Positions 8,009-36,300 of a DNA stretch of 64,000 nt are shown in pieces (the first letter of the stretch is position 1; each line of letters begins with the position of its first letter). The notes under the pieces are model-generated. The model was given only the letters and a program-made list of their open reading frames with translations. It ran no database searches and was not told the origin of the DNA. The position numbers and the translations under genes were made by a program. The stretch comes from Antedon mediterranea. Lineage: Eukaryota > Animalia > Echinodermata. The stretch lies in the NCBI RefSeq assembly GCF_964355755.1, contig NC_092671.1, positions 13,268,001-13,332,000 of the forward strand, in the 5' to 3' direction.

Positions 8009-8303
8009 TGTAAGAGTTTTTGATTAAATAGAACATATCAGACTATACACAATCTTTACAGTACTACTGATTGTTAAACCTAAATTATTTATAATAAATC
8101 ATTATTTATTAAAAAAGCAAGAACGTTTTTTGTAAGAAATATTTTTTTTAATATTTTTCTTCACAACAAATTAATAGTATCAATTTATTATTAATCTTGT
8201 TAAAAATTGTCCGAATAAGCCTGACAGCCAGCCATCTTGTAAAAAATCCACCTTCGCTGCCACATAGTCTGCCCTCTATCCTTCGACTATCCTTTATGAG
8301 TCT

Positions 8304-8857
8304 TTGATATCATTCATCGGACAACGCTATTAAATGGAACGCAGTTCACGCATCAATTAAATGATACCGGTACTCCATAGCCTCCCATTCTCTATTTGTC
8401 CGTGATTGTAAAAAATATATATAAAAGAACATCTTTCATAATAAAAACCGGTGCAGCAAAAACAACATTAATAATTCAAATAATGATTATCAAATACTTT
8501 TCAGAAAAAATGCGGTAAAAATGTAACTGAATAATGTCTGACCCTAAGCCCGACCCACAGAAAAGACAAAAAGGGTAATTAGACTGGAATCGGTGTTGGC
8601 AGAAAAATTGATTTCAGCACCATTCTGGGCGATACGGTATGGCATGACTGTGAGTATCAGAAGCTGAATATAGCCTATATAATACATTTATACCAACATC
8701 CAGCAAGTGGTAATGTAAGTAGAATCAATGTGAAACAACACTTCTTGTAGACTACAATGTGTGGGTCTACTAAACCTGTTTCGTCAGTCGGGGACCTCCC
8801 TGTCAGTCTGGAAAAACCCCAAACTATTTGTATATTAACTCATGAAACTTACCTCTA
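8304..8857 (+). repeat. Copy B of the ~560-bp direct duplication (start of gene A intron 1)
   Basis: Matches 1031-1597. Similarity ends 5 nt inside the exon (TAGAG|GTAAGTTTCAT on the - strand in both copies). Confidence 0.92.
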
Positions 8858-8925
8858 ACTACTATATTTTGTTGAGAGCAAATGAAAATGCCAACAACCA
8901 TCACAGTGATGTATTTTAACTCCAT
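8853..8925 (-). CDS. First coding exon of gene A, signal peptide MELKYITVMVVGIFICSQQNIVVR(G)
   Basis: ATG in strong context (ACAATGG). 24 codons + 1 nt, then AG|GTAAGT. Hydrophobic core. Phase 1 joins exon 1593-1814 in frame (G+GA = Gly). Confidence 0.72.
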
Positions 8926-11925: not shown

Positions 11926-12770
11926 ATTGCAAAAATAATTTTAAAAATTGACATTTAACTGTACCATGTGTATTTTAGTGAGTCGATATTATACACACAA
12001 TGCGAAGTACATTTAATTGTATTCGTTACCTAATTACCACTTTAGTAGTGTAATTTATCAAATCTGTGACCACGGCTCAATACAATATAACGCTATTTTT
12101 TGGTTTGCATCAATAGGAAACATATTAGTTCAACTAAAATACGTATTATCTTGTAATCATCGATTTTTTACCATCCGACATTGGGGAACTAAACGTCCAC
12201 ACACCAATTGCCCTAATAAACATTAATATGCAAATACGGGTTAAGCCAATGGGTAAGAATTTAAAATCAAACTGTTGCACGTTCCTTTTTTCAACTAATA
12301 TTTAGCTGTATGTTCTTAAATACGTTAACAAACGAATTCAATAAATTCAATCCATCAATCAATCTATCAATATTTGGTCTACTAGTGAATCGAGCAATGT
12401 TTGTTAATGGGGCGGCTTTCGTCAGGTCACTTTCTTTAAGAATGAATAGTGCACTATTATGTTGTTCAAGTAGAAATAATTAGTGTTTGTACTTCTCATT
12501 GGATATCAAGATGATTGTGTAAGACCAGGTGACTGAATTGGTAGTCGTGAGAGGAACACTTCTTGAAAGATAGACTTACTTCAACGAACTATAAGGACAT
12601 ACCTGTACACAAATGTTTAACTCACCTATCAGGTAAAACGCGGTTTTCACAAACTTTTAAAATGGGAATGTATCCAGCTTTGCCGTAAAAACACGTGTGT
12701 TTCGACACTATTGACCACAATTTGTGCAATTTTTATGAAAAATACATTTTACTTTTCAATTTTGTTTACT

Positions 12771-12870
12771 ATGGAAGAAACGTTTGGAAATATTAAAAGG
12801 ATATATAAGCATGTTTTATTACTTCTACTAATTTGTAATGTGATTTCTATAATACGTCTCACGAGTGCAG
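12771..12870 (+). CDS. Putative first coding exon of gene B (giant mucin-like), signal peptide MEETFGNIKRIYKHVLLLLLICNVISIIRLTSA
   Basis: ACTATGG start context, basic n-region, hydrophobic h-region and T-S-A cleavage motif. 33 codons + G, then CAG|GTAAAT donor. Phase 1 matches the acceptor at 30358 (G+AG = Glu). Confidence 0.7.
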
Positions 12871-13111
12871 GTAAATCAATTTTCTTTATATTTCTAAACT
12901 TTATGATAACCTTTAACTTTATATTAATATTGTTTTTATTTTATATTTTTATTTTTATTTTTTATATATAAATCCAAAGGCAAATTACTGAAAAAATGAC
13001 AATGCTGTGGGTATCAGTGGCTGGATCTCAATGGAGATACAAAAAAAAGCGAAAAGCTAAATTAAAACGATAAAGTAAACAGCCAGAAAGGTTAGCAGAG
13101 CTTTCGGGCTC

Positions 13112-13137
<26 letters not shown>
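13112..13137. repeat. (TA)n microsatellite
   Basis: Directly visible TA run. Confidence 0.9.
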
Positions 13138-13142
<5 letters not shown>

Positions 13143-14779
13143 GGTTCCATCAATTCAAATGAAGACGTATATATTATTTTGATATTACCGTTACCACTGC
13201 CATTGTATATTTATACCTTTTTAGTGTTATTGACTAAAACCAAAGGGCGTATACGTATTAATTTGGAAAACTATTTTAGAAAAATTGTTTATTGAGCGTG
13301 CCCTGAGGAGTATAAATTTGACTTGTTAAACACATGGCTTTTTGGAGTTCTCATGAATTACTCCCAAAATTGAGTATTGTTACAGTACCGTATTGTATTT
13401 TTAGACAACCTCAACTCATAATGCTAATTGTCATCTTAATTTTCACATCACCATTATTACCGAGGTTTTATCATCTTAAACGCTAATCGTTGTTCGACAT
13501 TGCGCGTCTCACTTGTGTTCGCCACGTTTTTGAACAAGCATGTGTATAGGTCCCCATTTCTTATCTTATATAATCCGGCCGAATATTCAACTTTATTGCG
13601 ATACATATATAATTATACCAAGGAAAACATATTATCCCTGGTATTATTATTGAACATTACAATGTTTCTTCTTTTAATGACAGAATGGCATACCAATAAA
13701 TAAGGAGATAACAAAGGCTGTTTTCACGTCCGTTTCCAGTCCTAAAAGTAATATAGTCACTTTAAATCTGGTAATAGCTAACTGTATGTACATTATTAAG
13801 ATTCATTATCAAGGGTTAAGGGTACTTATAATTAGTGTATGTAAATGATACGGTAGTTTATCATGGATACTAGTACACGATTTAGTCCGAGATGTTGAAG
13901 CAACTATGCCTAAAATATTTCTTCTGTGGCCTTCTCGGTTCAGGCCACGGTCTACCAACAGTCACGGGCTCCTGCTTTTTTGTTTTGTTTTAGGAGTGAG
14001 AAAGTTGGGCGAGTGTAAACTTTACCCACCACTGACAGTGAACAATCATAGATCAAATAACTTATCGCAATCTATACTTCTAGGCCTATATCTCTATTCA
14101 ACGCATTATTTTCCCGTAACTATGGTAGCATAATATACATATGTGGTCTATTATTTTTTCACAGATAAATGCATACTTATAGAATATACGCCAGCATTTT
14201 AATGAGAAAACTAATTCAGTTCTGTGTCGTTTATTTATTTAGAATAACTACAAAATCGAAACGTCAAATAGGAAAGCTGTGTTATACAAAACGTGAAGGA
14301 TTAAAATATTATTCTAAGGTTATAACTATGTTTACTTACATGCACGTGAATGAAGATAAGAACACACATTTATTATTATATATATTAGCGCACAATTTAT
14401 TGTATTATTATTTATGCTAACGTAATCTATTTTTAATCTAGAAAGTCTCAAGACATAGGGTTTACCTAAAATTAAATTAGTCATAAGAAGCAACTTGGGG
14501 TGGACCTAAATAGTAGGAAAGACATTCTTTTTTTGAACGCATGGTGTAAACTTAACAACAACGAGAAAAAAGAAAAACAAATCTATCTTTACTATGACCT
14601 TTTCAAACTTATTGGATAAATGGTTGTTCTGCCTCCGGTTCGTTGCAAATACCTGCTTTATTAACAAATCATCACCAATTAGGCTTCAATGTTGATGCGT
14701 TTTCCTGAATAGATTTAATATAAAAACTCCTAGTTATGGTTTAAACTGTCAAAGCACCATATCTAACTGGAGATTATAT

Positions 14780-15558
14780 AGGTAAATCAGTTATAAAGAA
14801 AGTAAACTCAAGGGTAAAATTTTTATATAGAAATAGAAAGTACTTAACTTTCAGAGATCTTAAGTTACTAGCAAATAGTTTGGTGTTATGCCTTTATGAT
14901 TATGCTTGTAGCGTGTGGTACTCTGGATTAAAAAAAACATTAAAAGTTAAATTGCAAACTGCACAAAATAAGACGGTCAGATGTATTCTTGGTCTTGAAC
15001 CAAGGGATCACATTGGGGCTAATGAATTAAACCAACTGAATTGGCTCCCAGTAGACTTAAGAGTTAAAGAGATAAAACTTTGTCACATGTATCGTATTAT
15101 TAATGGATTAAGCCCTACGTTTATGAATGATGGTATTAGTAGAGCAAATGTAATTCACCAGTACAATACTAGATTTGCAACTCAATCAATTTATAGACCA
15201 TATATAGGTAACCACTCCCAAACAACCTTTGTTAACACGGCAATAACGTCATGGAATCACCTGCCAAAATTGATACAGTGTTCAGAAACCATCAATCAAT
15301 TCAAAAGAAATATCAGGAAACATCTCAAAGAGGTTATGCTTGAAAGATTATAATTTATATTTATATTGTTACTACATGTGTTATTGTTTATTGTAAATGT
15401 TTATTCTTATGGTGTTTTTATCCTTAAGGGCCACAATGGAAATAAGTTTGACCTTTGGTTACTTTTTTGTGTTACGGTACCCTGAATTCATTCTTTGTAT
15501 TTTTTTTTATGTTGTGTTATTTTATGAATTCGAATAAAGAAATGAAATGAAATGAAAT
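14780..15558 (+). mobile_element. 5'-truncated CR1/L2-group LINE 3' fragment
   Basis: Frame KKVNSRVKFLYRNRKYL...DYACSVW...KLQTAQNKTVRCIL...LNWLPV...HQYNTR...WNHLP (ORF 14880-15353). AATAAA plus (GAAAT)n tail at 15533-15558. Confidence 0.88.
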
Positions 15559-17644
15559 CACTTGAAATGGGGTTGTGTAGATAGAATGCAGACATGGATC
15601 ATAATTGTATTATATTATTCATTTAGTCCTGACAAAGATACAGTAACATATTAAAAGACCCATACATCAAAACCAATATTATATAAAATATATAGCAATC
15701 GAGTGGCTTTCCACATTGTTAGACATTATACATTATATGACACATACCTTACTACTGTATATATTGAGGTATTTATTATTAAACACAAAAACAAAGTGTA
15801 CATAACAGAAGGCACCGAAAAGCAGAACAATCCTTATTACATAAGTAGGTATATAGAATTTCTTTAAGATGCTAAATGATTTAAATTAAGGACAGTTAAA
15901 ACAGTGTAATACATGAAGATTGAAGGGGAAATGAATATTGAGCTTGTCTTTACAACAATGATATGACATGTATCATACCACCAAAATTACGAGTGAGAAT
16001 CATAAGGGATTTAATGAAAGACGGTTGTTTTAAGACGGTCTGCATTTTCATTAAATGCCTTATGATAATGATTCTTACATAATATGACTATTCGCATAAG
16101 GCCTACTCCTTCGGATTGCAGAATACCGTATGTTATATAGTTTAACTATTAATACAACACTATTCTTGTTTTCTTCTTTCAGGCCTATTAATAAAATATA
16201 ATTCATTTCATAATGACATTTCATAACATAATCATTTCGTAACATATTCATTTCATTCGAGGGCGCTTAATAATCGGCTGCGACATTATTTATTTTATTA
16301 ACTTAATCAAGTGCATTTATGACCTGTCTGCTGTGTGTCTGGATAACGGTAACCACAATAAAATACTATCTAAATGTACATTCACTCGACAGCGGCTTTT
16401 ATGCGATATTTGCATTAACTTGTTTATATATAATTTTCCCGGCCGGCCGTCCATTGAGTTAAATAATTATATTTTACTTCTCCATCGTACACAATCGTTT
16501 TTATTATTATAATTTTTGTTTTTTTTAAATTAAATTGTTGTAAGTTGTCAATGTATCTAACACTTCAGCAGCAAAATTAGGCCTATTACCGTGTACCACA
16601 ATGTACATGAAAGGAATATAGTCGTTTCACGTTTTGTGATAAGGTATGGTGGTACGCTGACAGATAATCAGTAAAGTGGGAAGTTGCTTGAATATTTAAT
16701 CACGGTGCTGTGCAATCAAATTAAATATTTGTATAGCGTTAATATATCAACCACTTCAAAATGGTTCTCTTTGATCTTTAGGCCTTTTGCAAACACTATG
16801 CTAGCCACACCACTCTCAAATTATTACACCATTTTATGCGTTTAAATAAACCGTTAGATAGCTAGTTATAGGGTAGGCTTACCACATAATATAGCCTAAA
16901 CCAAAGAAATAGAAAGAAAATATAATCGGCATATATCACCAATATTGTTTGCATGTCGTAGATGCACTAATAATACGCCAGTAATGCAACGTACGTGGTA
17001 TACAATGTGTTTCCAAAAAAAATACAGTAAAAGTTGAAACAGCCTTTCTCTACTCAGGAAAACATGGAAACCGAAATAAGAGACACTCTTAACTGAAAAC
17101 AAAAGCGCAAACAATACTTTTTAGCTCAATTATTATTTTTATAATCCCAAAATCGTGTATGTACTAAAATGTTCATTAGTTAGTATCAAACATTATTATA
17201 TTGTTTATTTTAGGAATGTGAGATATATGAAATTACATTAGATAATATTTGATTTTCAACAAAATGCAAGTTTAAAATTGTATTTAAACGATGTTTTATA
17301 ACTAACACAATGGTATGGTATTTTATTTCAGTGACAGTATCGCTTCAGGCAAAATGAGGCACTATACTATTGTTAGACTGTAAAAAAATTTGTCTACCAT
17401 TGGTGACGCCCGCAAAGCAAATTTACAGATCATGTATGCCAGCCGTTTATAATTGAAGTAGAAATCACTTGATGGGTACAGGACAATTACCACACCATGA
17501 CGTCATTGCGTTTATAAGGCATGGCGTGAGAATATCGACCAAACATTGTATGACAATACAATGCTATTCAAAATAATAATAGTTAGTCTCTTTTCGTCTT
17601 TAACATGTTGATTGTGTGGGTTATTTCTTTGGGGGTTTTTATAA

Positions 17645-19400
17645 TCAAGTTTTATTTATTTCAATTAAACTGAATCGTGACAATTTATAAAAATTGGATA
17701 AATAATATAATAAGATTTAACATTAATATTAACATCTCCATTAATCAACAATATACAATTACAATCTAAAATATACATTATATAATAAAATACAATTATT
17801 AAAACAGAAATTTGGAACTGTTTGGTATTGAATAATATTGCCCCGCGAATATGAATTGTAGTAAATTGCATTAGGACCGGTTTTTAAAAATATTTACGAG
17901 GTAGGGGATAGGGCTACGTTTGTATCGTTCTGTTTTGACACTGGGGATCGTATGGTGTTTCTTATCTCTTAAATTGTACTTATGAGTTTCTTCTCTTAGG
18001 GCTGGCAACCATTCTTTAAATTCAGAATTAAGTAAAGAAGTACCAATACATGATTCGGTTCTTCGTTCCTTAAGGGGTTGTAATTTTAAAATCGAACAAG
18101 CTGCTTTATTATTATGAAACATAATTGTGACCTAAGATGATTCGACATGATTGACTCTTTCAATAGCATTGGTATGTTCATCGGTAAGATTTGGGTGCAA
18201 ATTCGGTGTAGCATATTTTACAACAGGTCTAACGTAACTTAAGTAAATCATTAGAAGGTCAGGCTTTGGCAATGAAAAGTTAGTGAGAAGTTTGAGCATA
18301 TGAATTCTACCATTAGCACGTTTAATCATATCTTGAACTTGGAGGTTCCATTTAAGATCAGAACTAATATGTAGGCCTAGAATTTTGACGGAGTCAACCA
18401 CATTGATAATTTCGTTATTAATACTTTAATAATGGATCAATATTAAGTGCTTTTTTCATAAAAGTGACATTCATAGAATTGTTAACGAGTCCACTTCAAT
18501 CTGCATATTGCGTCTATTGATATCGTTTCTAAATGTGGACTCAATCATCGTCATATCATCAACATATTTAAGGGTGGTAATTTTGTTCGATATGTCAACA
18601 TTGTTATTCATGCAAAGGAATCCCAAAGGTCATAATTTAGTTCCTTGTGGGATACCTGCGCGGAGGGTGACAACTTTAGAGTTAACACCTTGGTATGAGA
18701 CGTATTGTGATCTTATACTTGTTAAGAAGTCACATACCATGGCATGATTTCTGGTCTAACACCAAGTAAAAGCATCTTAGGTATTAATACATTGTGATTA
18801 ATTTTATCAAATACTTTGCTATAATCTGTTATTAGTAGCATAGAAATTGAATGGGGCTTTTCAGTATCTACTAGTTTAATGAGGTAGTGCCACGTTGATC
18901 TACCAGGGCGATTAGCAAATGATTGGGGTAGAGTTTTATATAAACATCTCTCATCAACCATTGAACGATAAAACCTTGGGCTACTTTCGCAAAATGGTCA
19001 GTGAGAGATATAGGACGACGCAGGCTTTGTCTTGCATAGGGACGACTTTTTCAGTTGTTCATTGTTGGGGTACTATTCCGTTCTGGTGTTGATTATTTCA
19101 GTTAATGGTTCACTAATTTCATACGCAAACTCTTTAACAATTTTTGCTGGGATATTTCTTGGGCCGCTTGCTTTGTTGGCTTTAGTTCTTCTAAGCGCAT
19201 TGTGTACTTCCCATGGATAAACGATTGGTGCAATGCAGGTAAATAACCTGGAAGTTGTGTCTTGTCAAGAACTGGAATGCCTGCTGCAACTGACGTGAGG
19301 TTGTTATTTATCAGATTAGCAGCAGCTACATAGTTGTTTTCGTCAATATCTGGAGGCATGTTTATTTTAAGACTGGTTTTTCCCACACCTACTAATGGGT
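17645..19400 (-). mobile_element. Degenerate L2/CR1-group LINE (RT region, many frameshifts and stops)
   Basis: Fragments DYSKVFDKINHNVLI, GIPQGTKL, KYVDD (~18550-18570), KILGLHISSDLKWN, SYVRPVVKYA and KTERYKRSPIPY. Confidence 0.85.
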
Positions 19401-20797
19401 ATTGACAAACTGCAAGCCATGGATTCATTGGAGTCAGTGGAGTCAACGGCCCACGTGACCATGTTAATTGCAATTCAAGCGAGTCAGTACGAAGTGTAAC
19501 TGCACTATTGTAAAAAAGTGCTAGGCACCATAAAACATATTAAATAATTTAATACAGTATAATCTAGTATGTTTATATGAAACATCAGAGAGGAGTAATT
19601 ATAAAATAAAATAATTATTTTATGTTATGTTGTTCTAAACATACCCTACTAGTACTACTACTAAAATAAAGTCAAGCCTGCCTGCTTCTCCCTTCTTGTT
19701 GGTCTCGCTTGTAGTTATTTTTTTTTCAAAATGTCCCCCGCCGGCCCACCACACAGCCCAGGCCTAGTCTAGCCCCTAATACAATATAGGGCTTCCTACT
19801 AGATGATATTTTGTTGAAAAAAATACGTTTCACAAGACTTAGATTTAAAATATCTGTAATCTACTGTATTTCGTCCATTGACAGCGTTGATATAGAAGCT
19901 ACTGCTAGGCCTAGAGCGTACTAGGCATACAGCGAAGCCGTCTCTACTCCCCGGCGGGCGGGCTACAGTATACTATATAGGGCCTAGGCTAGCTAGCTAG
20001 GCTTCTCAGACGTTGACCAGGCACCACCTAAAACTAACTGTAAACATCGAAGTCACATTTGGATATTCGAAATTGTTAACATAATTACATTAACGGTAAG
20101 TGATTCATAAATGTTTATGAATTGTACACAAATATTAACGAAAACGAAGGCTTATTATTATTCGAAGGCTTGCTCGCTGTTGGTATTTTTTCCGTTGAAT
20201 TACCGTCGTGGATTGCATGCATGATGCATTGCGTGGATTGCATGTATTATGCGTGCATTGCGTGCCTCGTTGACTCGCACTTTGGCAACACTCCCTACTA
20301 ATTGTTTAATTTCTTTGTGCCATTGTGCTGGATTACTTTTTTATGTTTCTCAATACGCGTATGGTAAAAATCTTTTGTTACAAGCGATACCTCTTTGATA
20401 ATTTAATTTCTTAGTTGTTTCATGTATTTTTTTGGAACTGTAACCTATAGGTATGATACTCCTATTTCCAATGCCTACAAAATACATTGTGAAAATATAT
20501 ATTCAAAAGAAAAAAAGTCAATTCAAGACTTGTTCTTTGGATTCCTTGTGCATTGGATAATGCCAAGTGGTTGTTTGCGCAATTCTAAACGATTACCGTA
20601 GTGTTGATCGTCCTGATGATAACATTGTTAACTGGTCAATTTATCATAGTTGATAAAGGCATTTCTTCAAATTAGTAATGAAAATAAACAAGATAATGTG
20701 TAACTATGTGATAGCTAAAACGTGATTTCAAGGCGTAATCCTGTTTATTCATTATTAACTATAGACATTGTTGTAGATATGCCTAAATAAGTTAAAT

Positions 20798-21148
20798 AAG
20801 GCTAAAGTGGCACATGCAAGCGAAATCAGACATAAGTCGGAATTTTGTTTTAATTTAGATTTTCACAAATACTGACCCTACATAATCCAAGATTTCAAAT
20901 AATGACAAAAAATATCTTGATACCATGTCGCTGCTTCCACTCTAAAGTTTAATAAAAAAAAATAACATGGCGTTTAAGTTACGCCATAACAACAAGGAAC
21001 TCTAAATGTTGTATTTCAATAAAATACCTTCGTTCATTATTGTTCTATATTATGCAAACTTTTTATTAAAAACCAATTGAAACACGTTCATTTTAAGCAT
21101 ATAACATGAATTGTCTGATTTCGCTTGCATTGGATACCACTACGCCTT
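20798..21148. mobile_element. MITE / non-autonomous DNA transposon (~350 bp)
   Basis: Imperfect terminal inverted repeats AAGGCTAAAGTGGCACATGCAAGCGAAATCAGACA and TGTCTGATTTCGCTTGCATTGGATACCACTACGCCTT. TSD not clear. Confidence 0.7.
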
Positions 21149-21801
21149 TTACCTTTATTTATCACCTTTTAGCAAAATGAAATATCAAGTAACCTAACAT
21201 ATAGCATTAACACAAAAATCCCTAACACAAAAATGTTCTCGTTTTAAAAAGGCCAAAAAAGAAACCAATGTAGTTTAATAATTAATATATATTAAGTTTT
21301 ATATCTGATGGGTTTTCACAGAATATTGTAGGCCTACTGTAAATTATTATGTGACCTAATAATTAGTCATAATGGTGGTAATACTAATAGTGAGTTAAAC
21401 AGCTAAGGGCGGTATGTATGTATTGTGAAATATTTGTGATCTGATTCTGATTATGAAAGGATGGCGTTTTACGAAGTAGGAATTTTAACAACCATTTTCC
21501 ATGGTCCAGTAGGAATAAGTTGTTTTCAATAATCGAAATAATCTGGTCTACTAGGCAGACTGAGGTTTAGATAGTGTATCTAAATTGGAGGATGACAACT
21601 CCGCGAACTCGAGTCACCACCTTGTGAAATTAAAAAAAGCATAAAAGAAAAATAATAACAAAATAATAGAAAAAAATTAAATAAGAAATAAATAAAAACA
21701 ATCAAAACTAAACCCAAACCAGCTGTGAATACTGCCACAACACTGAGTAGTTCCGTGATAATCAACATGATGATTGTATGATGTAAAGACTTTGGTCACT
21801 G

Positions 21802-22245
21802 TTTTTAGTCGCGTGGACGCGACTCTATAGTTCACCATGTCGGTCGGTCTGTCGGTCTGTCTGTCGGTCCGGTATCACTATGCGTTTTATCGCTTTTCTG
21901 TACTTTTTGAACTGTTTTGATGTACACACAATTAGTCGCGTGGGTGGACGCGACTCTATAGTTCACTATGTCGGTCGGTCTGTCGGTCGGTCTGTCTGTC
22001 GGTCCGGTATCACTATGCGTTTTATCGCTTTTCTGTACTTTTTGAACTGTTTTGATGTAAAGACAATTAGTCGCGTGGGTGGACGCGACTCAATAGTTCA
22101 CTATGTCGGTCGGTCTGTCGGTCGGTCCGGTATCACTATGCGTTTTATCGCTTTTCTGTACTTTTTGAACTGTTTTGATGTACAGACAATTAGTGGCGTG
22201 GACGCGACTCAATAGTTCACTATGTCGGTCGGTCTGTCGGTCTGT
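21802..22245 (+). repeat. Tandem array (~3.4 units of 123-135 bp) derived from a HINE/DINE-like 5' end
   Basis: Units start TTAGTCGCGTGG at 21805, 21932, 22067 and 22190 (variant). Each has AGTCGCGT..ACGCGACT and a GTCG/GTCT microsatellite. Confidence 0.85.
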
Positions 22246-22469
22246 AGGCCAACATAGCCTAAATAAATACGTGAACGTGATTGGTTGAAATTGCATCACA
22301 TGACTACTGCTGCGAGGATCGTAAATGGTATATTTTCTCGAGTACGATGATATTGACGGAGTAAATTGCGCGTGTCCCGATCATTAAACATATAACATCC
22401 AGTAAATTCTCGAGGATTTTGATATTGACTATGTAATTTGCATGTGGCAACACTCGCGTTTGGCGATAA

Positions 22470-22630
22470 AACTTGGTTCCCACTAGAACGTAACGCAAGG
22501 ACGTAAACGCAACGCAAGCGTTTTAACCAATGACAAGCGAAGTACAAGCGAATAAGCCATCGCTTGTGATTGATCAATTCACTTGCGTTGCGTTACGTCC
22601 TTGTGTTGCGTCGCTAGTGGGAACCACGCT
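22470..22630. mobile_element. PIF/Harbinger-type MITE (161 bp, nearly palindromic)
   Basis: TIRs TGGTTCCCACTAG..CGTAACGCAAGGACGTAA.CGCAACGCAAG and CTTGCGTTGCGTTACGTCCTTGTGTTGCG..CTAGTGGGAACCA. TAA flanks both sides (22467-22469, 22631-22633). Confidence 0.8.
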
Positions 22631-23550
22631 TAAATAAATAAAAATAATCTACTGGGACTCGCGACGATTAGTCCACATCATCACGAGACTACGTTTTACA
22701 CGCCGCGCCACGTAACTTGCTTAAAGCAATAAATCAACTAAACTATTTAAAATAGCTATGCTATAGGAATCATTATTGACAAGGAATTATTCTCGAGAAT
22801 ATATTTCTCTTAGCTCTACGCGCTTCGGGAAATATATTCCCTCGAGCAAAATATCCTTCCTTCGGGGATGACGTATATTTCACCTCTAAGCAGGCAATAT
22901 CTGTATCTATATATAGTCCAGTCAATCTACGATTTGTGGTGGACAAAATTGCAATAAATGATTTTATACACTTATAGTGTAGGCTGGTATGTCGTTTATA
23001 TGAATGTCGTGTATATTTTTTGTTAAAAGCAAACTTTGACTTTATTTCATATCTTGATAATATAAGGAATGAAAAAAAATATGTTGCCATTTTTTCAAAA
23101 GACCTTTAAAGGACCAAATTCAAGATGGCCGCCAACATTCAAATAACCCTATTAAAAATCAGAATATCACCAATAATACAAATTATGAATGTGGAACAAG
23201 TCCGTTTTGATGGTATTACTGTACCCATTATACAATCCTAACTATGTAAAGCGATAATCTGTCGGCCATCTTGGATTTGAAAATGGCCGCCACTAAAAAT
23301 TAAATTCTTTAAATAATTTTTTTTAAATGTGTGCATAAATTGTTGTTTGTACACAATGTTCTAAAATTGTTGTCACTTCTCACAGGATTGTAAACTGTAA
23401 ATATAAGGCTAAAGTTGTCAATGTCCTGTATAACAGATATATAATACCCCACTATGACTATTAAATTAAATAATCGTTCAAAGTTGGAGTTGCAAAAGTA
23501 TGGAACAAATTAACAATTTATATCAAATATTCAACATCAATTACGTCTAA

Positions 23551-24613
23551 CTAGAGGGTTAGACCTCTAGTTCGCTCGCTCCCCTCTAGGAAGTGTAAAC
23601 GAAGGTTCTCGGAAGGATAATGACTCGGGTAAAAATGTTTTAGAAGGACGTTCTCCTTGTACGTTTTCTGTCGGTTACCATTATTGAAAATGCTTGACAT
23701 TCGAAAAACTAAACCTACTCTGTTTCACAGTGTCTTAGATGATTAATAACATTTTAAAGTATAGTGTTTATTGTTTAATAGGGCGGAGGTGGGGAGGCAG
23801 AGTTCATTTGAGGGAGATGCTTATTCGAGGGATTTTTTAGTTTTAATAATATCGTAACATTTATAATCAAATAAAATCCTCTAATAGATATGAAAAGTGG
23901 TAACAAATTATAACAAATGCTTGGTAAATTATAGTTAACAGTGTAATGAATTCTATTATAAATAGGTGGGGGGGGGGGGGGGGGGTGTAGGCGATTATTA
24001 TTCAAAGTGATGTTTTATTGGGAGGCGTTTATTCAAATAAATACCATCATAATACATTATTTCATTTAAACATCTTTTAAAACTAACTTCCGCGACAGTG
24101 TAGGCCGTTTCGGCCCAAGAAGGAAGATGTTTTTAGACTGCTTGCAATATGGGTCCTAATGGGACACAGATAGCCTACAGTTATTCCTGCCAGCTTACTC
24201 AATAAAACTCGGCTATCGGGATTTTATTTTTTAACTACTGTACCTTCACACGCGCGGTCCGATCCGAAAATAAACAAAAAACTAAAATAGCTATAGCCAC
24301 TAACGACCAACTTAACTGAAACCAGGTAGTTGCAAGGTGAACCTGTGAACTCATCGTGAACCTGGAAATTACTTTGACCGCGTACAATTGAAATTGAGTT
24401 GAAAATCTACCGATGAATCAGAAATTTTGTTTTAAAACTCTTTATAATATATTCTTAAGATAGAAATATGGAACAATATCGTAATAGTGAAAACTGTTTT
24501 ACATTTCGCGGTACACCTGAGATAGTTCAGGTAGGTATCCAAGGCAGAAATTTGTTCCAAAGTTTTTCCATTGTGCTCGCCTATGTCAGAATTAACCATA
24601 ATTTATATATAGA
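23551..24613 (-). mobile_element. Non-autonomous Helitron, copy 2 (1063 bp), nested in the inner Academ-like element
   Basis: Reverse-complement match to 10299-11624. On the - strand A|TCTATATATAAA ... CTAG|T. Confidence 0.88.
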
Positions 24614-25329
24614 TTCTAAATTACAGATCTCATTTCTTTTCATGAACCTGAAACTTGACAGGAGACAGGACCACAATATACAACAAGTGCATTTATAACT
24701 TATTGTGAAATCCTGTATAAATATGTTAAATAATAAATGCGTTATTGCTATGTAATTCAATGTCTGAACCTTCAGGGCCATAGTCACCAGTATGGTTGGT
24801 AAGTTTTCAACCTGTCAACTTTTGGCAGAAGCTTGAAGGAAATACAGATACACCTCTGCCTATAAATAACCTTGTAAATGAATGAACTCCTACTTCTCAT
24901 CTTCTACAATCTCAACCAATTTCATTAGATATGTACCCCCTACAGACAGACCAGCATTATACACTGGGTTGATGAGTGCACATGGTTGTGGTATAAAAAC
25001 TCATGTACTAGGAAAAGACAAGAATGCCTGGTGATGACTCTTGCCCAAGATAAGTGGAGGTGGACAGAGATGACATCAAAAAGCAATTAGTATGTCGACC
25101 CGGTGAACTATATGGCTTTTGGACATGTAGCATTGTGAGAATAGTGTTGAGGCAGGTGCTTTTGTTGAAACTGAACTTGTATTACCTATACAACCAGTGA
25201 CACAAATCGGGACACAAATATCTTAAATGGAAAACATCTGTAAAGGACAAAACCACACTAATTCTGCTTTCTCTCTACAACTTGCTTCTACAAATGCAGA
25301 CGGAGAAAGAGATTCTAAGTTAAGTATGT

Positions 25330-25700
25330 ATATGAGAGGACATGTATGTGTGGGACTTGCTGGATTTACACCAATTGATCAGGGTCATTGAGCATGGTAT
25401 CATTGGAATAACACAAATTAATGATTTCATCAGAGCTGGCAAATCTAGTTAACATTTAAAGAGAGATGATATCCCGGTTAATGAAGAATGCTGCAATTCG
25501 CACAAAGGTGTTTGTTGGCCATGGCATGATGAAATTGGACAGAAAATGTTTGAGGCATTGGTAAAAGTCTTGTAGAAGGCAAACTGTCTATATGGGATCC
25601 TAAAAAAAAGACGAATATTGGCAAAAAAATATATATGACGGTGAATACAGGTGACAAACTTATCAAAGTAAAAGAAGACTCCTATAGAGATTATTTGCCG
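25330..25700 (+). pseudogene. Decayed Academ-like transposase fragment
   Basis: Broken frames give GIIGITQ, DEIGQKMFEALVK, EGKLSIWDPKKK and GDKLIKVKED. I recall these as resembling large invertebrate Academ-type transposases; not verified by search. Confidence 0.6.
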
Positions 25701-27944
25701 GTGAAATGAGGTCTTTCAGTTATTTTGCCAATTTGTTTCTGAACAAGGTTGTTGGGAACGGAGATCAGTCTGTGGAAGTTTGATGGATACAGTAGTAGAG
25801 AACGAAGGAAGGTCAACTTACTGTATCGCATTCAAGATTAGAAATATTTCATTGAAGGACTTTGGCAGAGTTAGTTGTCATTTAACTGAAGAAGTTTATG
25901 AGATGTTTTAATATGAAGAAGTGTACAGTCAGTACTATAGACCTCCTGATGGTCAACATTTTGTGTTAATCACCATGTTGTTGTCATAAGCATATCATTT
26001 GTATATTTCAATCTAATTTTATTTAACAAGTTTTAATAAGAAATTTAACCCATTTAAAAAAAAAATGTTGTTTTATTTGATTTTATGTGATTTCAATCAA
26101 CTTGCACATGTTTTAATAAGAAATTTAATCCATTTTTAAAAAATGGCGGCCATTTTGAAATTCAAAATGTCAGAATACTAATGAATATAGGTTTATAATA
26201 ATTCTTATATAGCAGAGAACCCATATGAACTTAAAATATTATTCATAATGGGTGTTACTTTGTCCAATATTTATTGGATATTTTACGTATTGGCGGCCAT
26301 CTTGGATTTGACACCCTTAAGCTTTTTTAAAAAAAATGGCAACATATTTTTTTCATTACTTTACATCCTAAAGACACTAAATCAGCTGGAATTTTGCTTT
26401 TAACAAAAAAATGACACGAAATTACATAGTGGCCTACACTATTATTTGATAGATAAAAATACTATAAACGTCTTGTAAAAAGTCTACCAAAATCGGACAA
26501 CAGAAAATGTGTATTTAAAGTAGAAAAGTGTCGAACTTTGTTTTTTGTTTTCTTGCGCGATGTGTTCAACGGTTTACCTAATTAGCATAAAATTCCTTGT
26601 CCCTGATTGGTTAATATTCAGGTCATCTAGGTCACCACCTCTGTTTGGTCATCGTTTTTGTTGTGACGTACGTGTGGTTAACACATGGGGACATGCTGCT
26701 ATCGGGTCGGGGCCTACTGACAGAGCGTCGTCGTTAATACCGATTAACTGGTGTATGCCTCTCTCTCTAGCCTGATGTTGTGCGTGTAGACTAAACCAAA
26801 GGAAGCTTTTTTCTAGGCCTAGGCCAACTTTTTAGGTGCCAGCCAGAGATGCATTTCATATAGGATTGAATGTGATGAATCAATAAATAATAGCCTACTT
26901 ACTTACGTTATGGGCAGCCACTCACTCGCACTACATTATTAGCCTAGCTAGGCCTACACTACCACCGTTAGGCAAGTGGGAGACCTACTGTACACAGGTC
27001 AACATCTGAGACTGACTTTTATTTTAATTATATTAATAATTATATGTATATATAATTATTATTTATAAACATTTAAATATATAATTTATTATTAAATGTA
27101 TTTCCTATTTTATTAATCTGAAATAAATATTTTTTTATTACAGTATCTCTTTGGATAGCCTTTAAATAAATTGTAAGATAAATTAATTTTGTTAACCCAT
27201 GAATATTTTATTTTAATACTGTATAATTTAAGATCTAGCCCTATTATGAGTACTGTATACGACATTGGACAACAAATAACACAAATTACATAATACAAAA
27301 GTAATTTCTCAATATTTATTTTCATAAATACAGTAAATATATTATATTGCACACATCATTTCTTTTTACATGCATTTACATGTACTACTGTACTGTATAT
27401 GTATAAAATATTTCAGTCATGCAATGTGCATTTTAATAATGGCAGTACTGTAGTTTCATAAGATGTACACAAAAATCATTTACCCGAGCACTACTTATAA
27501 ATTAACATGCTGCAGCTGGTCAGTTGCATTATTTTTCCAGTAGCCATATAAAATACTAATCCAGTAAATAAACTCGACCCAGCCAGTTATTTATAATTTT
27601 TTGTTTTTAATATGTACACATATTTAGTCTGAACGTTAATATTTTCAACCAAATCTGATCATTCTCAAATACGTAGTACATGTACAAACTATTATAATAA
27701 TATCGAAAAGTTTGATAATAATGAATGTATTTTTTCGTGAAGTGGAGAGAATATTTCATTCATTTAAAGAATTTAAAGAATTTAACTCTCTGCCCTGTTA
27801 AATATAAGTCAATCATTCGGAAATATTAATATCTCTATTCAATTCATAAACATTAATTATTTATACACTTTACAATAAAGTATAACAGTCAACACTACAT
27901 CACCATAATAAAACTAAATAACTTGCCAATAGTTCACTGAAACC

Positions 27945-28319
27945 ATGGTCAAGGAACTGTTTTGATCATGCATGTATGTATCTTAAAATGTACAGCATAT
28001 TTTATGACCTTCACGTTTATGTAATTCTTATGGCAATTTGTATGGATACTGACCCCGCAACAGCATTGGGCTTCAATCCTCTTTGAATGCTCGCTGTATT
28101 CACACTATCTGCTCCTAAAATAGTAGTAAGAAAATTATAAAGTGAAAAACAAACTTTCATTTGTTATTTTAGTTCATTGAAGATGAAAATGTAATTGGAA
28201 CTTAATATATCTGTATAATTCCAGAGAAAAATGTAACTAAACATACCTTTCTGTCTGATTGATACAGATTTATAACTCTTCTCATCAATTGTTTCTCTGC
28301 AAATGATGCAGTACTGCAT
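27945..28319 (-). pseudogene. Spliced 5' remnant of the outer element's transposase gene
   Basis: Exon 28319-28247 MQYCIICRETIDEKSYKSVSIRQK(G), a GT-AG intron at 28246-28115, then GADSVNTASIQRGLKPNAVAG and, after a 1-nt frameshift, SIHTNCHKNYIN. CxxC...HxxC zinc-finger-like pattern. Confidence 0.6.
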
Positions 28320-30358
28320 TCTTTAATAGTAGTATAAGATATATAAGGTAAATGAAATAGATATCACAACAAATACATTAATAGAATATAATCTGTAGTT
28401 TACACAGAGGAAATGTATATCGCATAGGCCTACAGGTTTGATAAAAAATAAAGTATTGCAGTACTTAGACTTAGAGGCCTAGCCTCTACTATACTATTTA
28501 AGTATAATTACTAGGCCTAGGCCTACATAAGTTATAATTAACTAGGCCTAGCTACTAAAAAAGGCTGGCTACTCTTATATTAATTATATAAACATTCCGG
28601 GGTTAAGATTTTAGTGCATAGCTGTGCCTACTACCTAGGCATAGGCCTATACTGTATATCTATTATATCTAGACCATGGCCCAGTCGTCGGGTAGCGGCT
28701 GCCTGACCTTTTATTAGACAGTATAGGATAGCCTAGCTAGGCTTACATACCTAGGCCTAGGCCTAGCTTAATTCCTAAAAAAAATGAAGAGCGGTTAGGC
28801 CCTAGGCCTATATAATAATATCCGAATTTTGTCTTTTTACGCCTAGGCCTAGTCAGAGTAGGCTGAAATGACAAAATAAATATTTTAAGATCGCTTTTAG
28901 TATCATCCCCTAGGCCTATATAATATCGGCGGTCTTCCTCCATTCGTCTCAGTCTACGTGTCTGTACTGCTGCTGTAGGTGGTCCGGTACCAAAGAATAT
29001 ATATTATTTGGTTGTACGGCGAGCGGAGGAGGCCTACATCAGTACACGCAAATTAGCGTGACGTAACGTTTTTCAACAACATCGCGAGTAGATCCCCGCT
29101 CCCTATGTTATATCGCTCTTTTCGTATCTACTAAGACTAATTTACATTGCCGCATTCGCTTAAATAGTTAATGTAAGATTAAATGTTGCTTTTAAAATAA
29201 TGAAATATGAAAAAAAAAATGTATAAATTACCTGATTACAAGATTTAAAGTCATACTTGTTGGGGAATATCAGATTTTCCGTCGTAACAACAACAACACG
29301 GCACAAAACTTATTCGACCAATCAGAGACAACAATTTCTAACAATATTACTACGCCGAATACGAACATATTTTAATGAAATAGTGCTATGATTTATTGTC
29401 TTTTTATCACCTTTCCAGTTGTCCGATTTTGGTAGACTTTTTGTATGTTTTTTATCGTAAAATTAACTTTAAGTTGAGTAAAAAAAATCTTTTGTTGCAA
29501 TTTTGTCTACTTTTGGGAGTAGAAACTGTAGATTGACTGGACTAATATAATTAATACACCTATTAAAATTTAAAAAATATAAATTCGATTTCTGTATTGT
29601 GTCTGTGTTTGGTAGAGCATGTAAAGTGTTATGTTTTTCTATATCCAACCAAGAAGTATTTAATAGAGAGATAAATATATACTAAATTACTAAAACACTG
29701 TGTAAACGGTCATTTATTTATTTGATCTTGGCCAACCACGGTAAAATATGCATATGGTTTTAAATTATTTTTTTTTGTTCAAAGTTAAAAATTCACATAA
29801 CAAAAATAAAAATTAGTTAAAAGGGTTAACATTTTGTAAAATAAAACACATCATTTAAAATACAGATAAAATACATAGTTTAAAATACAAAATACAAGCA
29901 AGATTGGTGTGTGTGTGAGGGTATAGCATAAAATGATCATCAACGTTAGGTCATAATACTTCAAACGCCATGTAGAACGTTATTAAAATAAAAAGTTATC
30001 AAGTGTATGCTACAGTAATATTTAGCTATGTTAAATATTACTAGATGACATGTTATTACGTTACAATATTATTTCAACACATATATTGACTTTAGATCAT
30101 GTTATTAATATGTACTTGCTGACATTATAACTCACTGACATTATAACTCACTGAATATAAATCAGTATGACCATGGAAGTATGACAATACCGTTAATAGG
30201 CTACATGGCCATTAATATGTATAATCATTAGACTTATTTCCTGGCATAATATTGTTATTTTCATTTACAATAATCCCGATACAGATTATTATTATTATTA
30301 TTATGTTTATATTATAATATTTTTGAAACCCTAAAACAGTACAATTTAATAATTTCAG

Positions 30359-33300
30359 AGGATATTACAACTGCCGAAGAAGAAACAACGGAAAATTCGA
30401 CAACTTTGTTTATTACCTCAACAACAGATATAACAACACAAACATCAACGACATTGTTTGACTCAACAACAGGTGTGGATATAACAACACAGCAAGATTC
30501 CACAACAGATGACGTAACTACTGATGAAGGTATAACAACACAAACTTCAACCACTTTGTTTGACTCAACAACAGGTTTGGATATAACAACACAGCAAGAT
30601 TCTACAACAGTTGACGTTACTACTGATGAAGGTATAACAACACAAGCCTCAACCACATTGTTTGACTCAACAACAGGTTTAGATATAACAACACAGCAAG
30701 ATTCTACAACAGTTGACGTAACTACTGATGAAGTACAAGCTTCAACCACATTGTTTGACTCAACAACAGGTTTGGATATAACAACACAGCAAGATTCTAC
30801 AACAGTTGACGTAACTACTGATGAAGGTATAACAACACAAGCTTCAACCACATTGTTTGACTCAACAACTGGTTTGGATATAACAACACAACAAGATTCT
30901 AAAACAGTTGACGTAACTACTGATGAAGGTATAACAACTCAAGCCTCAACCACTTTGTTTGACTCAACAACAGGTGTGGATATAACAAGACAGAAAGGTT
31001 CTACAACAGTTGACGTTACTACTGATGAAGGTATAACAACACAAGCTTCAACCACTTTGTTTGACTCAACAACAGGTTTGGATATAACAACACAGCAAGA
31101 TTCCACAACAGATGACGTAACTACTGATGAAGGTCAAACAACACAAGCTTCAACGACTTTTTTTGACTCAACAACAGGTTTGGATAAAACAACACAGCAA
31201 GATTCTACAACAGTTGACGTAACTACTGATGAAGGTATAACAACACAAGCTTCAACCACTTTGTTTGACTCAACAACAGGTGTGGATATAACAACACAGC
31301 AAGATTCTACAACAGTTGACGTAACTACTGATGGAGTACAAGCTTCAACCACATTGTTTGACTCAACAACAGGTTTGGATATAACAACACAGCAAGAATC
31401 TACAACAGTTGACGTAACTACCGATGAAGGTATAACAACACAAGCTTCAACCACATTGTTTGACTCAACAACTGGTTTGGATATAAAAACACAGCAAGAT
31501 TCTACAACAGTTGACGTAACTACTGATAAAGGTATAACAACTCAAGCCTCAACCACATTGTTTGACTCAACAACTGGTTTGGATATAACACCACAGCAAG
31601 ATTCTACAACAGTTGACGTAACTACTGATGAAGGTATAACAACTCAAGCCTCAACCACTTTGTTTGACTCAACAACAGGTGTGGATATAACAACACAGCA
31701 ACAATCTACAACGGTTGACGTTACTACTGATGAAGGTATAACAACACAAGCTTCAACCACTTTGTTTGACTCAACAACAGGTGTGGATATAACAACACAG
31801 CAAGATTCCACAACAGTTGACGTTACTACTGATGAAGGTATAACAACACAAGCTTCAACCACTTTGTTTGACTCAACAACAGGTTTGGATATAACAACAC
31901 AGAAAGATTCTACAACATTTGACGTTACTACTGATGAAGGTATAACAACACAAGCTTCAACCACTTTGTTTGACTCAACAACAGGTGTGGATATAACAAC
32001 ACAGCAAGATTCTACAACAGTTGACGTAACTACTGATGAAGTACAAGCTTCAACCACATTGTTTGACTCAACAACAGGTTTGGATATAACAACACAGCAA
32101 GATTCTACAACAGTTGACGTAACTACTGATGAAGGTATAACAACACAAGCTTCAACTACATTGTTTGACTCAACAACTGGTTTGGATATAACAACACAGC
32201 AAGATTCTACAACAGTTGACGTAACTACTGATGAAGGTATAACAACTCAAGCCTCAACCACATTGTTTGACTCAACAACTGGTTTGGATATAACAACACA
32301 GCAAGATTCTACAACAGTTGACGTAACTACTGATGAAGGTATAAGAACTCAAGACTCAACCACTTTGTTTGACTCAACAACAGGTGTGGATATAACAACA
32401 CAGCAAGAATCTACAACAGTTGACGTTACTACTGATGAAGGTATAACAACACAAGCTTCAACCACTTTGTTTGACTCAACAACAGGTGTGGATATAACAA
32501 CACAGCAAGATTCTACAACAGTTGACGTTACTACTGATAAAGGTATAACAACACAAGATTCAACCACTTTGTTTGACTCAACAACAGGTTTGGATATAAC
32601 AAAACAGAAAGATTCTACAACATTTGACGTTACTACTGATGAAGGTATAACAACTCAAGCCTCAACCACATTGTTTGACTCAACAACTGGTTTGGATATA
32701 ACACCACAGCAAGATTCTACAACAGTTGACGTAACTACTGATGAAGGTATAACAACTCAAGCCTCAACCACTTTGTTTGACTCAACAACAGGTGTGGATA
32801 TAACAACACAGCAACAATCTACAACGGTTGACGTTACTACTGATGAAGGTATAACAACACAAGCTTCAACCACTTTGTTTGACTCAACAACAGGTGTGGA
32901 TATAACAACACAGCAAGATTCCACAGTAGTTGACGTTACTACTGATGAAGGTATAACAACACATGCTTCAACCACTTTGTTTGACTCAACAACAGGTTTG
33001 GATATAACAACACAGAAAGATTCTACAACATTTGACGTTACTACTGATGAAGGTATAACAACACAAGCTTCAACCACTTTGTTTGACTCAACAACAGGTG
33101 TGGATATAACAACACAGCAAGATTCTACAACAGTTGACGTAACTACTGATGAAGTACAAGCTTCAACCACATTGTTTGACTCAACAACAGGTTTGGATAT
33201 AACAATACAGCAAGATTCTACAACAGTTGACGTAACTACTGATGAAGGTATAACAACACAAGCTTCAACTACATTGTTTGACTCAACAACTGGTTTGGAT

Positions 33301-36300
33301 ATAACAACACAGCAAGATTCTACAACAGTTGACGTAACTACTGATGAAGGTATAACAACTCAAGCCTCAACCACATTGTTTGACTCAACAACTGGTTTGG
33401 ATATAACAACACAGCAAGATTCTACAACAGTTGACGTAACTACTGATGAAGGTATAACAACTCAAGCCTCAACCACTTTGTTTGACTCAACAACAGGTGT
33501 GGATATAACAACACAGCAAGAATCTACAACAGTTGACGTTACTACTGATGAAGGTATAACAACACAAGCTTCAACCACTTTGTTTGACTCAACAACAGGT
33601 GTGGATATAACAACACAGCAAGATTCTACAACAGTTGACGTTACTACTGATAAAGGTATAACAACACAAGATTCAACCACTTTGTTTGACTCAACAACAG
33701 GTTTGGATATAACAACACAGAAAGATTCAACAACATTTGACGTTACTACTGATGAAGGTATAACAACTCAAGCCTCAACCACATTGTTTGACTCAACAAC
33801 TGGTTTGGATATAACACCACAGCAAGATTCTACAACAGTTGACGTAACTACTGATGAAGGTATAACAACTCAAGCCTCAACCACTTTGTTTGACTCAACA
33901 ACAGGTGTGGATATAACAACACAGCAACAATCTACAACGGTTGACGTTACTACTGATGAAGGTATAACAACACAAGCTTCAACCACTTTGTTTGACTCAA
34001 CAACAGGTGTGGATATAACAACACAGCAAGATTCCACAACAGTTGACGTTACTACTGATGAAGGTATAACAACACATGCTTCAACCACTTTGTTTGACTC
34101 AACAACAGGTTTGGATATAACAACACAGAAAGATTCTACAACATTTGACGTTACTACTGATGAAGGTATAACAACACAAGCTTCAACCACTTTGTTTGAC
34201 TCAACAACAGGTGTGGATATAACAACACAGCAAGATTCTACAACAGTTGACGTAACTACTGATGAAGTACAAGCTTCAACCACATTGTTTGACTCAACAA
34301 CAGGTTTGGATATAACAACACAGCAAGATTCTACAACGGTTGACGTAACTACTGATGAAGGTATAACAACACAAGCTTCAACTACATTGTTTGACTCAAC
34401 AACTGGTTTGGATATAACAACACAGCAAGATTCTACAACAGTTGACGTAACTACTGATGAAGGTATAACAACTCAAGCTTCAACCACATTGTTTGACTCA
34501 ACAACAGGTTTGGATATAACAACACAGCAAGATTCTACAACGGTTGACGTAACTACTGATGAAGGTATAACAACACAAGCTTCAACTACATTGTTTGACT
34601 CAACAACTGGTTTGGATATAACAACAGAGCAAGATTCTACAACAGTTGACGTAACTACTGATGAAGGTTTAACAACTCAAGCCTCAACGACTTTGTTTGA
34701 CTCAACAACAGGTGTGGATATAACAACACAGCAAGAATCTACAACAGTTGACGTTACTACTGATGAAGGTATAACAACACAAGCTTCAACCACTTTGTTT
34801 GACTCAACAACAGGTGTGGATATAACAACACAGCAAGATTCTACAACAGTTGACGTTACTACTGATGAAGGTATAACAACACAAGCTTCAACCACTTTGT
34901 TTGACTCAACAACAGGTTTGGATATAACAACACAGAAAGATTCTACAACATTTGACGTTACTACTGATGAAGGTATAACAACACAAGCTTCAACCACTTT
35001 GTTTGACTCAACAACAGGTGTGGATATAACAACACAGCAAGATTCTACAACAGTTGACGTAACTACTGATGAAGTACAAGCTTCAACCACATTGTTTGAC
35101 TCAACAACAGGTTTGGATATAACAACACAGCAAGATTCTACAACAGTTGACGTAACTACTGATGAAGGTATAACAACTCAAGCCTCAACCACTTTGTTTG
35201 ACTCAACAACAGGTGTGGATATAACAACACAGCAAGAATCTACAACAGTTGACGTTACTACTGATGAAGGTATAACAACACAAGCTTCAACCACTTTGTT
35301 TGACTCAACAACAGGTGTGGATATAACAACACAGCAAGATTCTACAACAGTTGACGTAACTACTGATGAAGTACAAGCTTCAACCACATTGTTTGACTCA
35401 ACAACAGGTTTGGATATAACAACACAGCAAGATTCTACAACAGTTGACGTAACTACTGATGAAGGTATAACAACACAAGCTTCAACTACATTGTTTGACT
35501 CAACAACTGGTTTGGATATAACAACACAGCAAGATTCTACAACAGTTGACGTAACTACTGATGAAGGTATAACAACTCAAGCCTCAACCACATTGTTTGA
35601 CTCAACAACTGGTTTGGATATAACAACACAGCAAGATTCTACAACAGTTGACGTAACTACAGATGAAGGTATAACAACACAAGCTTCAACTACATTGTTT
35701 GACTCAACAACTGGTTTGGATATAACAACACAGCAAGATTCTACAACAGTTGACGTTACTACTGATGAAGGTATAACAACACAAGCTTCAACCACTTTGT
35801 TTGACTCAACAACAGATGTGGATATAACAACACAGCAAGATTCTACAACAGTTGACGTAACTACTGATGAAGTACAAGCTTCAACCACATTGTTTGACTC
35901 AACAACAGGTTTGGATATAACAACACAGCAGGAATCTACAACAGTTGACGTTACTACTGATGAAGGTATAACAACACAAGCTTCAACCACTTTGTTTGAC
36001 TCAACAACAGGTGTGGATATAACAACACAGCAAGATTCTACAACAGTTGACGTTACTACTGATGAAGGTATAACAACACAAGCTTCAACCACTTTGTTTG
36101 ACTCAACAACAGGTTTGGATATAACAACACAGAAAGATTCTACAACATTTGACGTTACTACTGATGAAGGTATAACAACACAAGCTTCAACCACTTTGTT
36201 TGACTCAACAACAGGTGTGGATATAACAACACAGCAAGATTCTACAACAGTTGACGTAACTACTGATGAAGTACAAGCTTCAACCACATTGTTTGACTCA

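What the first reader, a model, noticed from the sequence alone, without database searches (positions are those of the whole stretch)
12771..30400. Signal-peptide exon 17.5 kb upstream splices in phase onto the giant exon
Seen: the 100-nt exon MEETFGNIKRIYKHVLLLLLICNVISIIRLTSA+G ends at CAG|GTAAAT (phase 1), and the giant exon begins with a 2-nt AG. The join reads ...LTSA-EDITTAEEETTENSTTLF. Much of the sequence between is transposon-derived. Inference: the mature protein begins directly with the repeat domain, without the N-terminal VWD domains of gel-forming mucins, more like a tethered mucin or mucin-stalk receptor. Unseen small intervening exons cannot be excluded.
Basis: partly seen in the sequence, partly recalled or inferred. 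Interest (0 to 1): 0.7.

Follow-up and report, generated by a model that had tools for sequence, protein, structure and literature searches.

The report
Signal exon of giant mucin-like gene
A short stretch coding for a likely export signal sits 17.5 kb ahead of a stop-free, threonine-rich repeat of over 11,000 amino acids and would splice onto it in frame, likely making a huge sugar-coated secreted or surface protein with a gene layout already known from human membrane mucins.

Summary
The coordinates, splice sites and frame are as stated. The join is inferred: no RNA was available. It is still the best reading. The giant frame (at least 11,213 codons, no stop) is under coding constraint and has no Met before residue 7,844, so it needs an upstream exon. 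12771-12870 is the only phase-1, signal-like ATG exon on this strand in 30 kb at five cut-off sets. No in-frame internal exon of 30 nt or more and no VWD-type domain was found in between. A mirror-image gene of the same layout starts 3.8 kb away on the other strand, which likely bounds the 5' end. 'No N-terminal VWD' is supported. 'Tethered' cannot be told, because the C-terminus is outside the window. The acceptor is weak and micro-exons are not excluded. The layout is known (MUC3B exon 2 is 39 kb); the proline-free, strongly acidic repeat has no detectable homologue. The scan noted a similar giant Thr-rich gene on other DNA. New member of a known kind.

The parts
12771..12870 (+). Coding part of the likely first exon: 33 codons plus 1 nt; n-region with K/R, 14-residue hydrophobic core, Thr-x-Ala at the exon end (predicted signal-peptidase site); phase-1 donor
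   Evidence: single-copy DNA matching two runs of one sample with 0 differences
12735..12770 (+). In-frame upstream ATG, would add 12 residues; weaker start context (T at -3, A at +4) than 12771 (A at -3, G at +4)
12871..30358 (+). Inferred intron 1, 17,488 nt, GT...AG, repeat-rich; no phase 1-to-1 exon of 30 nt or more found; 6 micro-exon candidates at loose scores
30359..64000 (+). Giant exon, at least 33,642 nt, 11,213 codons without stop; Thr 34.5%, Asp 14.6%, Ser 9.0%, Gln 8.7%, 14 Pro, no Cys, no Trp; open at the window's end
30429..63989 (+). Tandem array of about 333 units of 102 nt (34 aa; 50 units of 31 aa), 91% matches, under coding constraint
8853..8925 (-). Likely signal-peptide exon (73 nt coding, phase 1, GAG|GTAAGT) of a divergently placed neighbour gene; its ATG is 3,846 nt from ATG 12771
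1593..1814 (-). 222-nt phase 1-to-1 exon of the neighbour gene, 24 Thr and 12 Glu in 73 residues, strong splice sites
8301..8860 (-). Donor plus about 550 nt of intron, duplicated at 1600-1028 (81% identity over 599 columns); both copies begin at the last 8 nt of an exon
4018..8023 (-). Broken LINE retrotransposon in the neighbour gene's first intron (ORF1 with SGNH-like and zinc-knuckle matches; endonuclease and RT pieces)

Best explanation
The exon at 12771-12870 is likely the first coding exon of a giant mucin-like gene and likely splices, across a 17.5 kb repeat-rich intron, in frame onto the stop-free repeat exon that starts at 30359. Shown: the sites, the phase match, the open frame, coding constraint on the array. 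Inferred: the 33-residue peptide targets the chain to the ER and is cut after its final Ala; the mature protein starts with about 25 unique residues (one N-glycan sequon) and then 333 or more Thr/Ser/Asp repeats that are O-glycosylated into an extended, strongly anionic bottle-brush that holds water at an epithelial surface or in a secreted coat. It has no N-terminal VWD assembly, so it would not polymerise the way gel-forming mucins do. Whether it is membrane-anchored or released depends on exons beyond the window (about even odds).
For: Sites and frame. The array is coding: changes along a minimum spanning tree of 143 distinct units are 90 synonymous and 126 non-synonymous against 77:219 possible (ratio about 0.50, P 5e-7), 0 stops where 5.8 are expected (P 0.003); all 332 unit lengths are whole codons. 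No Met before residue 7,844. Only signal-like phase-1 exon on +; of 37 donors scoring 3 or more, 6 close a phase-1 ATG exon and only this one is hydrophobic. 0 phase 1-to-1 internal exons among 7 candidates of any phase (resampled mean 1.4 and 11.0). No VWD, C8, TIL, EGF or SEA match in 88 intron segments or 87 upstream segments; 1 hit in each set, both below the curated cut-off. The same filter on the - strand finds a second signal exon that matches a Thr-rich phase-1 exon, a head-to-head gene that leaves under 4 kb for anything upstream. S+T 43.4% meets the 40% mucin criterion (PMC4948705, passages).
Against: No transcript evidence at all. The acceptor scores poorly in my generic model (-0.64, against 6.68 for the neighbour's acceptor); AGs at 30427 and 30472 score slightly higher (0.0, 0.36), though they are also phase 1. 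The donor is moderate (5.0, joint 7th of 1,805 GTs). Six micro-exon candidates remain. The frame is open for 50 codons upstream of 12771, with a fair acceptor at 12633 (3.4), so the exon might be longer (such an open run occurs at 4.7% of positions). No homologue supports the N-terminus or the repeat. Signal peptide and glycosylation were judged by hand-made rules, not by SignalP or NetOGlyc.
Confidence: 0.72

Rival explanations
1. Same gene, but the join is indirect or shifted: micro-exons intervene, a nearby phase-1 AG (30427 or 30472) is used, or the exon begins at 12735 or at the acceptor at 12633. The protein would differ by a few to a few tens of N-terminal residues; with a longer N-terminus the hydrophobic stretch could act as an uncleaved type II anchor.
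For: Weak acceptor and in-phase alternatives; micro-exon candidates; upstream open frame and acceptor.
Against: Most single micro-exon candidates break the frame or add a stop (read by eye); the hydrophobic core is only 14 residues and ends in a (-3,-1) site; the nearest upstream donor (12528) has a stop two codons before it in phase 0.
Confidence: 0.15
2. The giant exon takes its start elsewhere: a tiny ATG exon in phase 2 joined at 30285, using the in-frame Leu run before the acceptor as signal core, or exons left of the window with the neighbour gene nested in an intron; 12771-12870 would be a chance look-alike.
For: 28 open codons with a Leu run precede the acceptor; several short phase-2 ATG exons exist at loose scores; AT-rich DNA makes hydrophobic peptides easily.
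Against: The Leu run is a (TTA)n microsatellite like others in the window; the 30285 acceptor scores lower (-1.68); chance rate of a 12771-like exon is 0.01-0.07; no domain-coding segment on + in 1-12770.
Confidence: 0.08
3. The array is a satellite or a dead gene, and nothing is spliced.
For: The repeat unit is stop-free in this frame by construction, and concerted evolution can keep a frame open; no expression data.
Against: Excess of synonymous change and absence of stops; third-position diversity 0.108 against 0.026 at second positions, and in-frame indels only. Transition bias was not modelled and could inflate the synonymous excess, but not the missing stops.
Confidence: 0.05

Closest known systems
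[quoted passage not shown]
   Same: A giant Ser/Thr tandem-repeat exon 2 behind a short N-terminal region: 15,873 bp in MUC3A, 39,267 bp in MUC3B, 32,428 bp for MUC12's repeat exon (PMC9578598, passages); MUC12 up to 23,080 aa (PMC13345508, passages). That their exon 1 holds little more than the signal peptide is recalled, not read.
   Different: No sequence homology found; no SEA, transmembrane or PDZ part visible (outside the window); 0.1% Pro and 18% Asp+Glu; SEA-type membrane mucins are described as vertebrate (PMC9578598), while this genome looks invertebrate.
Orphan, lineage-specific mucins (Pajic et al. 2022)
   Same: Secreted proteins that gain Thr/Ser-rich exonic repeats and have no detectable homologue (PMC9417175, passages).
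   Different: Those arise from proline-rich precursors in mammals; this one is nearly proline-free and very large.
Spider aggregate glue gene AgSp2
   Same: Short 5' exon, very long intron (~31 kb), large repetitive 3' exon, secreted product (PMC6553539, passages).
   Different: Spidroin family with its own terminal domains; no homology implied.
Gel-forming mucins (MUC2/5/6/19 and invertebrate VWD mucins)
   Same: A large O-glycosylatable repeat exon with S+T above 40%.
   Different: The three N-terminal VWD-C8-TIL units shared by these proteins (PMC4948705, passages) are not found; no Cys in 11,213 residues, so no CysD inserts.

Membership tests
Gel-forming mucins | N-terminal VWD-C8-TIL units before the repeat domain | tested here: not met
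   No such Pfam match in 88 + 87 stop-free segments of 36 aa or more on +; no in-frame internal exon. Short exons could escape the scan.
Gel-forming mucins | C-terminal VWD or cystine knot | not testable with these tools
   Exon runs off the window; no genome held.
Membrane mucins | N-terminal signal sequence | tested here: inconclusive
   Signal-like by hand-made rules; SignalP not available; join not observed.
Membrane mucins | Large exon of Ser/Thr-rich tandem repeats | tested here: met
   At least 33.6 kb, about 333 units, S+T 43.4%.
Membrane mucins | SEA or EGF modules, transmembrane helix and cytoplasmic tail | not testable with these tools
   Outside the window; none within it.
Mucin (PTS) domain | Thr+Ser at least 40% | tested here: met
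   43.4%; criterion from PMC4948705.
Mucin (PTS) domain | Proline often above 5% | tested here: not met
   14 of 11,213 residues; the paper words this as 'often', not as a requirement.
Mucin (PTS) domain | Dense O-glycosylation | not testable with these tools
   Inferred from composition only.

The most novel reading that the evidence does not exclude
The two head-to-head genes are an inverted duplicate pair of a lineage-specific mucin in an echinoderm-like animal, one of which has grown into a proline-free, polyanionic glycopolymer of over 11,000 residues with no VWD head; and the 111 phase-1 CAG|GTGTG sites scattered through the array, paired with the phase-1 AG in the units, let splicing cut out whole blocks of repeats in frame, so one exon yields a ladder of brush lengths.
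Probability: 0.1. Interest if true: 0.7.

Novelty: new member of a known kind. Interest (0 to 1): 0.4.

Why it matters
It fixes the likely N-terminus of a very large gene that short-read annotation tends to miss, and shows that the 'signal exon, then giant repeat exon' design of vertebrate membrane mucins and of silk-type genes likely recurs, without homology, in an invertebrate. The exon is already in the size range of the largest human mucin exons and is still open. A proline-free, Asp-rich mucin-like polymer would be a useful test of how far proline is needed for O-glycosylation and brush stiffness. The splice itself is ordinary.

Tried and rejected
No whole genome held, so the C-terminus and paralogues could not be read. 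No RNA holder listed. Run X1, guessed RNA, covers 30 of 30 bins with depth that follows the repeats, so it behaves as thin DNA; no 12870-30359 joint among the 15 joints shown, 261 not shown; no closer look at the exon in that run was obtained. Homologue searches: exon peptide against proteins of 80-2000 aa, none; repeat against 351-2000 aa, 0 of 7,990 candidates; HMMER over 1.84 billion representatives gave 9 hits, the best an ankyrin-repeat protein and MAP4, judged matches of period only; Pfam hits of the repeat to DSBA and a phage family have 0 passing stretches and were rejected. ESM Atlas: best scores 0.85 and 0.81, below its evidence level. Metagenome scans for the exon end and for the repeat: nothing. 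The bacterial promoter scan does not apply. Homology between the two genes: signal exons not similar (P 0.42), Thr-rich heads only marginal (P 0.03 protein, 0.05 DNA, chosen after looking), so paralogy is not claimed. Paper searches (listings and abstract starts only) showed no description of such a gene in crinoids or other echinoderms; the library lacks most subscription papers. Folding was not tried: a low-complexity repeat without relatives gives no useful model.

Full report
Observation. The window has an ATG at 12771 in a strong context and a 100-nt open stretch ending CAG|GTAAAT, a phase-1 donor. At 30353-30358 lies TTTCAG; the next two bases complete a Glu codon with the exon's last G and enter a frame that stays open for 11,213 codons to the end of the window. 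The intron would be 17,488 nt. The first exon lies in single-copy DNA: contigs of two runs from one sample cover 11893-12905 with 0 differences at single-copy depth.

Is the giant frame a real exon? It is 34.5% Thr, 14.6% Asp, 9.0% Ser, 8.7% Gln, with 14 Pro, no Cys and no Trp, built from about 333 units of 102 nt. Of 332 units, 278 have 34 codons, 50 have 31 and 4 have other whole-codon lengths; diversity is 0.108 at third and 0.026 at second codon positions. Counting distinct variants against the majority unit gave no synonymous excess (32 of 78 against 81 of 218, P 0.59), a saturated measure; counting changes along a spanning tree of the 143 distinct 34-codon units gave 90 synonymous and 126 non-synonymous (6 multi-base changes left out), ratio about 0.50, P 5e-7, and no stop where 5.8 are expected, P 0.003. 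So the array is under moderate coding constraint. Its first Met is residue 7,844, so it needs an upstream start.

Which upstream exon? Among 687 ATG..GT pairs on + in 1-30358, one passes a filter for donor strength, hydrophobic core and cleavage site: 12771-12870. It remains the only phase-1 candidate at all five cut-off sets; resampled DNA gives 0.07 (loose) or 0.01 (tight) such exons. Without any hydrophobicity filter, 6 of 37 donors close a phase-1 ATG exon and the other five encode short polar peptides. The matrices are recalled approximations and the cut-offs were set with the candidate known, so these figures are indicative. The peptide has a K/R-bearing n-region, a 14-residue core (mean hydropathy 3.1) and Thr-x-Ala at the exon end.

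Anything in between or upstream? With cut-offs loose enough to admit the gene's own sites, the intron gives 7 internal exon candidates of 30-1000 nt, none phase 1-to-1 (resampled means 11.0 and 1.4), and the one that enters in phase 1 has no partner to restore the frame. Six micro-exon candidates of 3-23 nt remain and could add at most a few residues. Pfam finds no mucin-associated domain in 88 stop-free segments of the intron or 87 upstream of the exon; each set has one hit below its curated cut-off. The intron is repeat-rich by read depth with one weak RT fragment.

The neighbour. The same filter on the - strand finds a second signal-like phase-1 exon at 8925-8853, and a 222-nt Thr/Glu-rich phase 1-to-1 exon with strong sites lies at 1814-1593. 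The two genes would be head to head, ATGs 3,846 nt apart. This gives a local precedent for the layout and leaves little room for N-terminal domains upstream of 12771, unless the neighbour is nested in an intron. Both donors of the neighbour, with about 550 nt of following intron, are copies of each other (81%). Paralogy between the two genes is only marginal.

Against. No RNA: no RNA holder was listed and the run guessed as RNA behaves as DNA. The acceptor scores weakly and two in-phase AGs just downstream score slightly higher. An in-frame ATG at 12735 and an acceptor at 12633 leave the exon's 5' edge open. No homologue of either part was found.

How it likely works. Inferred from established secretory biology: signal-peptide targeting and cleavage, GalNAc-type O-glycosylation of the Thr/Ser repeats, and an extended anionic brush (Asp+Glu 18%, Lys+Arg 0.7%). 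Without VWD heads it would not polymerise at the N-terminus as gel-forming mucins do. Anchored or secreted is undecided: the window ends inside the array and shows no membrane segment. An acidic matrix or calcium-binding role is possible from the composition but untested.

Comparison. MUC3A and MUC3B carry their repeats in exon 2 (15,873 and 39,267 bp) and MUC12's repeat exon is 32,428 bp (PMC9578598, passages); MUC12 reaches 23,080 aa (PMC13345508, passages). HEG1 has its signal peptide in exon 1 and Ser/Thr-rich exons next (PMC5374711, passages). Spider AgSp2 has a short 5' exon, a ~31 kb intron and a large 3' exon (PMC6553539, passages). Gel-forming mucins share three N-terminal VWD-C8-TIL units, and PTS domains have at least 40% Ser+Thr and often above 5% Pro (PMC4948705, passages). 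Orphan mucins arise repeatedly by gain of Thr/Ser repeats (PMC9417175, passages; lead from an earlier scan note). No supplements were read. The organism is not given; the only named relative of the nearby LINE's ORF1 is a crinoid protein at 40% identity (1 named of 4 hits), a weak hint of an echinoderm. Eight paper searches listed no description of this gene.

Verdict. It works like an orphan or membrane-mucin-type brush protein, is not a gel-forming mucin by the N-terminal test, and is a new member of a known kind. Interest 0.4.

Noticed in passing
window 8925-8853 and 1814-1593, - strand: A second, divergently oriented gene with the same layout (signal-like phase-1 exon, then a Thr/Glu-rich phase 1-to-1 exon); it continues left of the window.
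   Followed up: partly
window 8860-8301 and 1600-1028: The last 8 exon bases, the donor and about 550 nt of intron are duplicated (81% identity), so the second exon's donor looks copied from the first: a possible case of exon and intron gain by internal tandem duplication.
   Followed up: partly
window 30472 onward, within the array: 111 CAG|GTGTG sites, all in phase 1, score as donors; any use would keep the frame if paired with the phase-1 AG of a later unit.
   Followed up: partly
window about 49500-62300: Recent higher-order duplication of about 6.5 kb in the array (identity up to 99.9% at offset 6,465; longest exact repeat 1,605 nt); real expansion or assembly duplication not told apart.
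   Followed up: partly
window 4018-8023, - strand: Broken LINE with an SGNH-like plus zinc-knuckle ORF1; only 4 relatives found, one named, from a crinoid.
   Followed up: partly
window 10298-11627 and 23548-24614: Two inverted copies (74-83% identity) of a repeat of about 1.3 kb, one between the two genes' starts, one in the long intron.
   Followed up: no
window 22474-22626 and 21813-22245: A palindromic high-copy element beside a 123-135 nt tandem repeat, MITE-like by shape.
   Followed up: no
window 12529-12632, + strand: A 104-nt GT...AG stretch with fair splice scores could be a small 5' UTR intron ahead of the signal exon.
   Followed up: no
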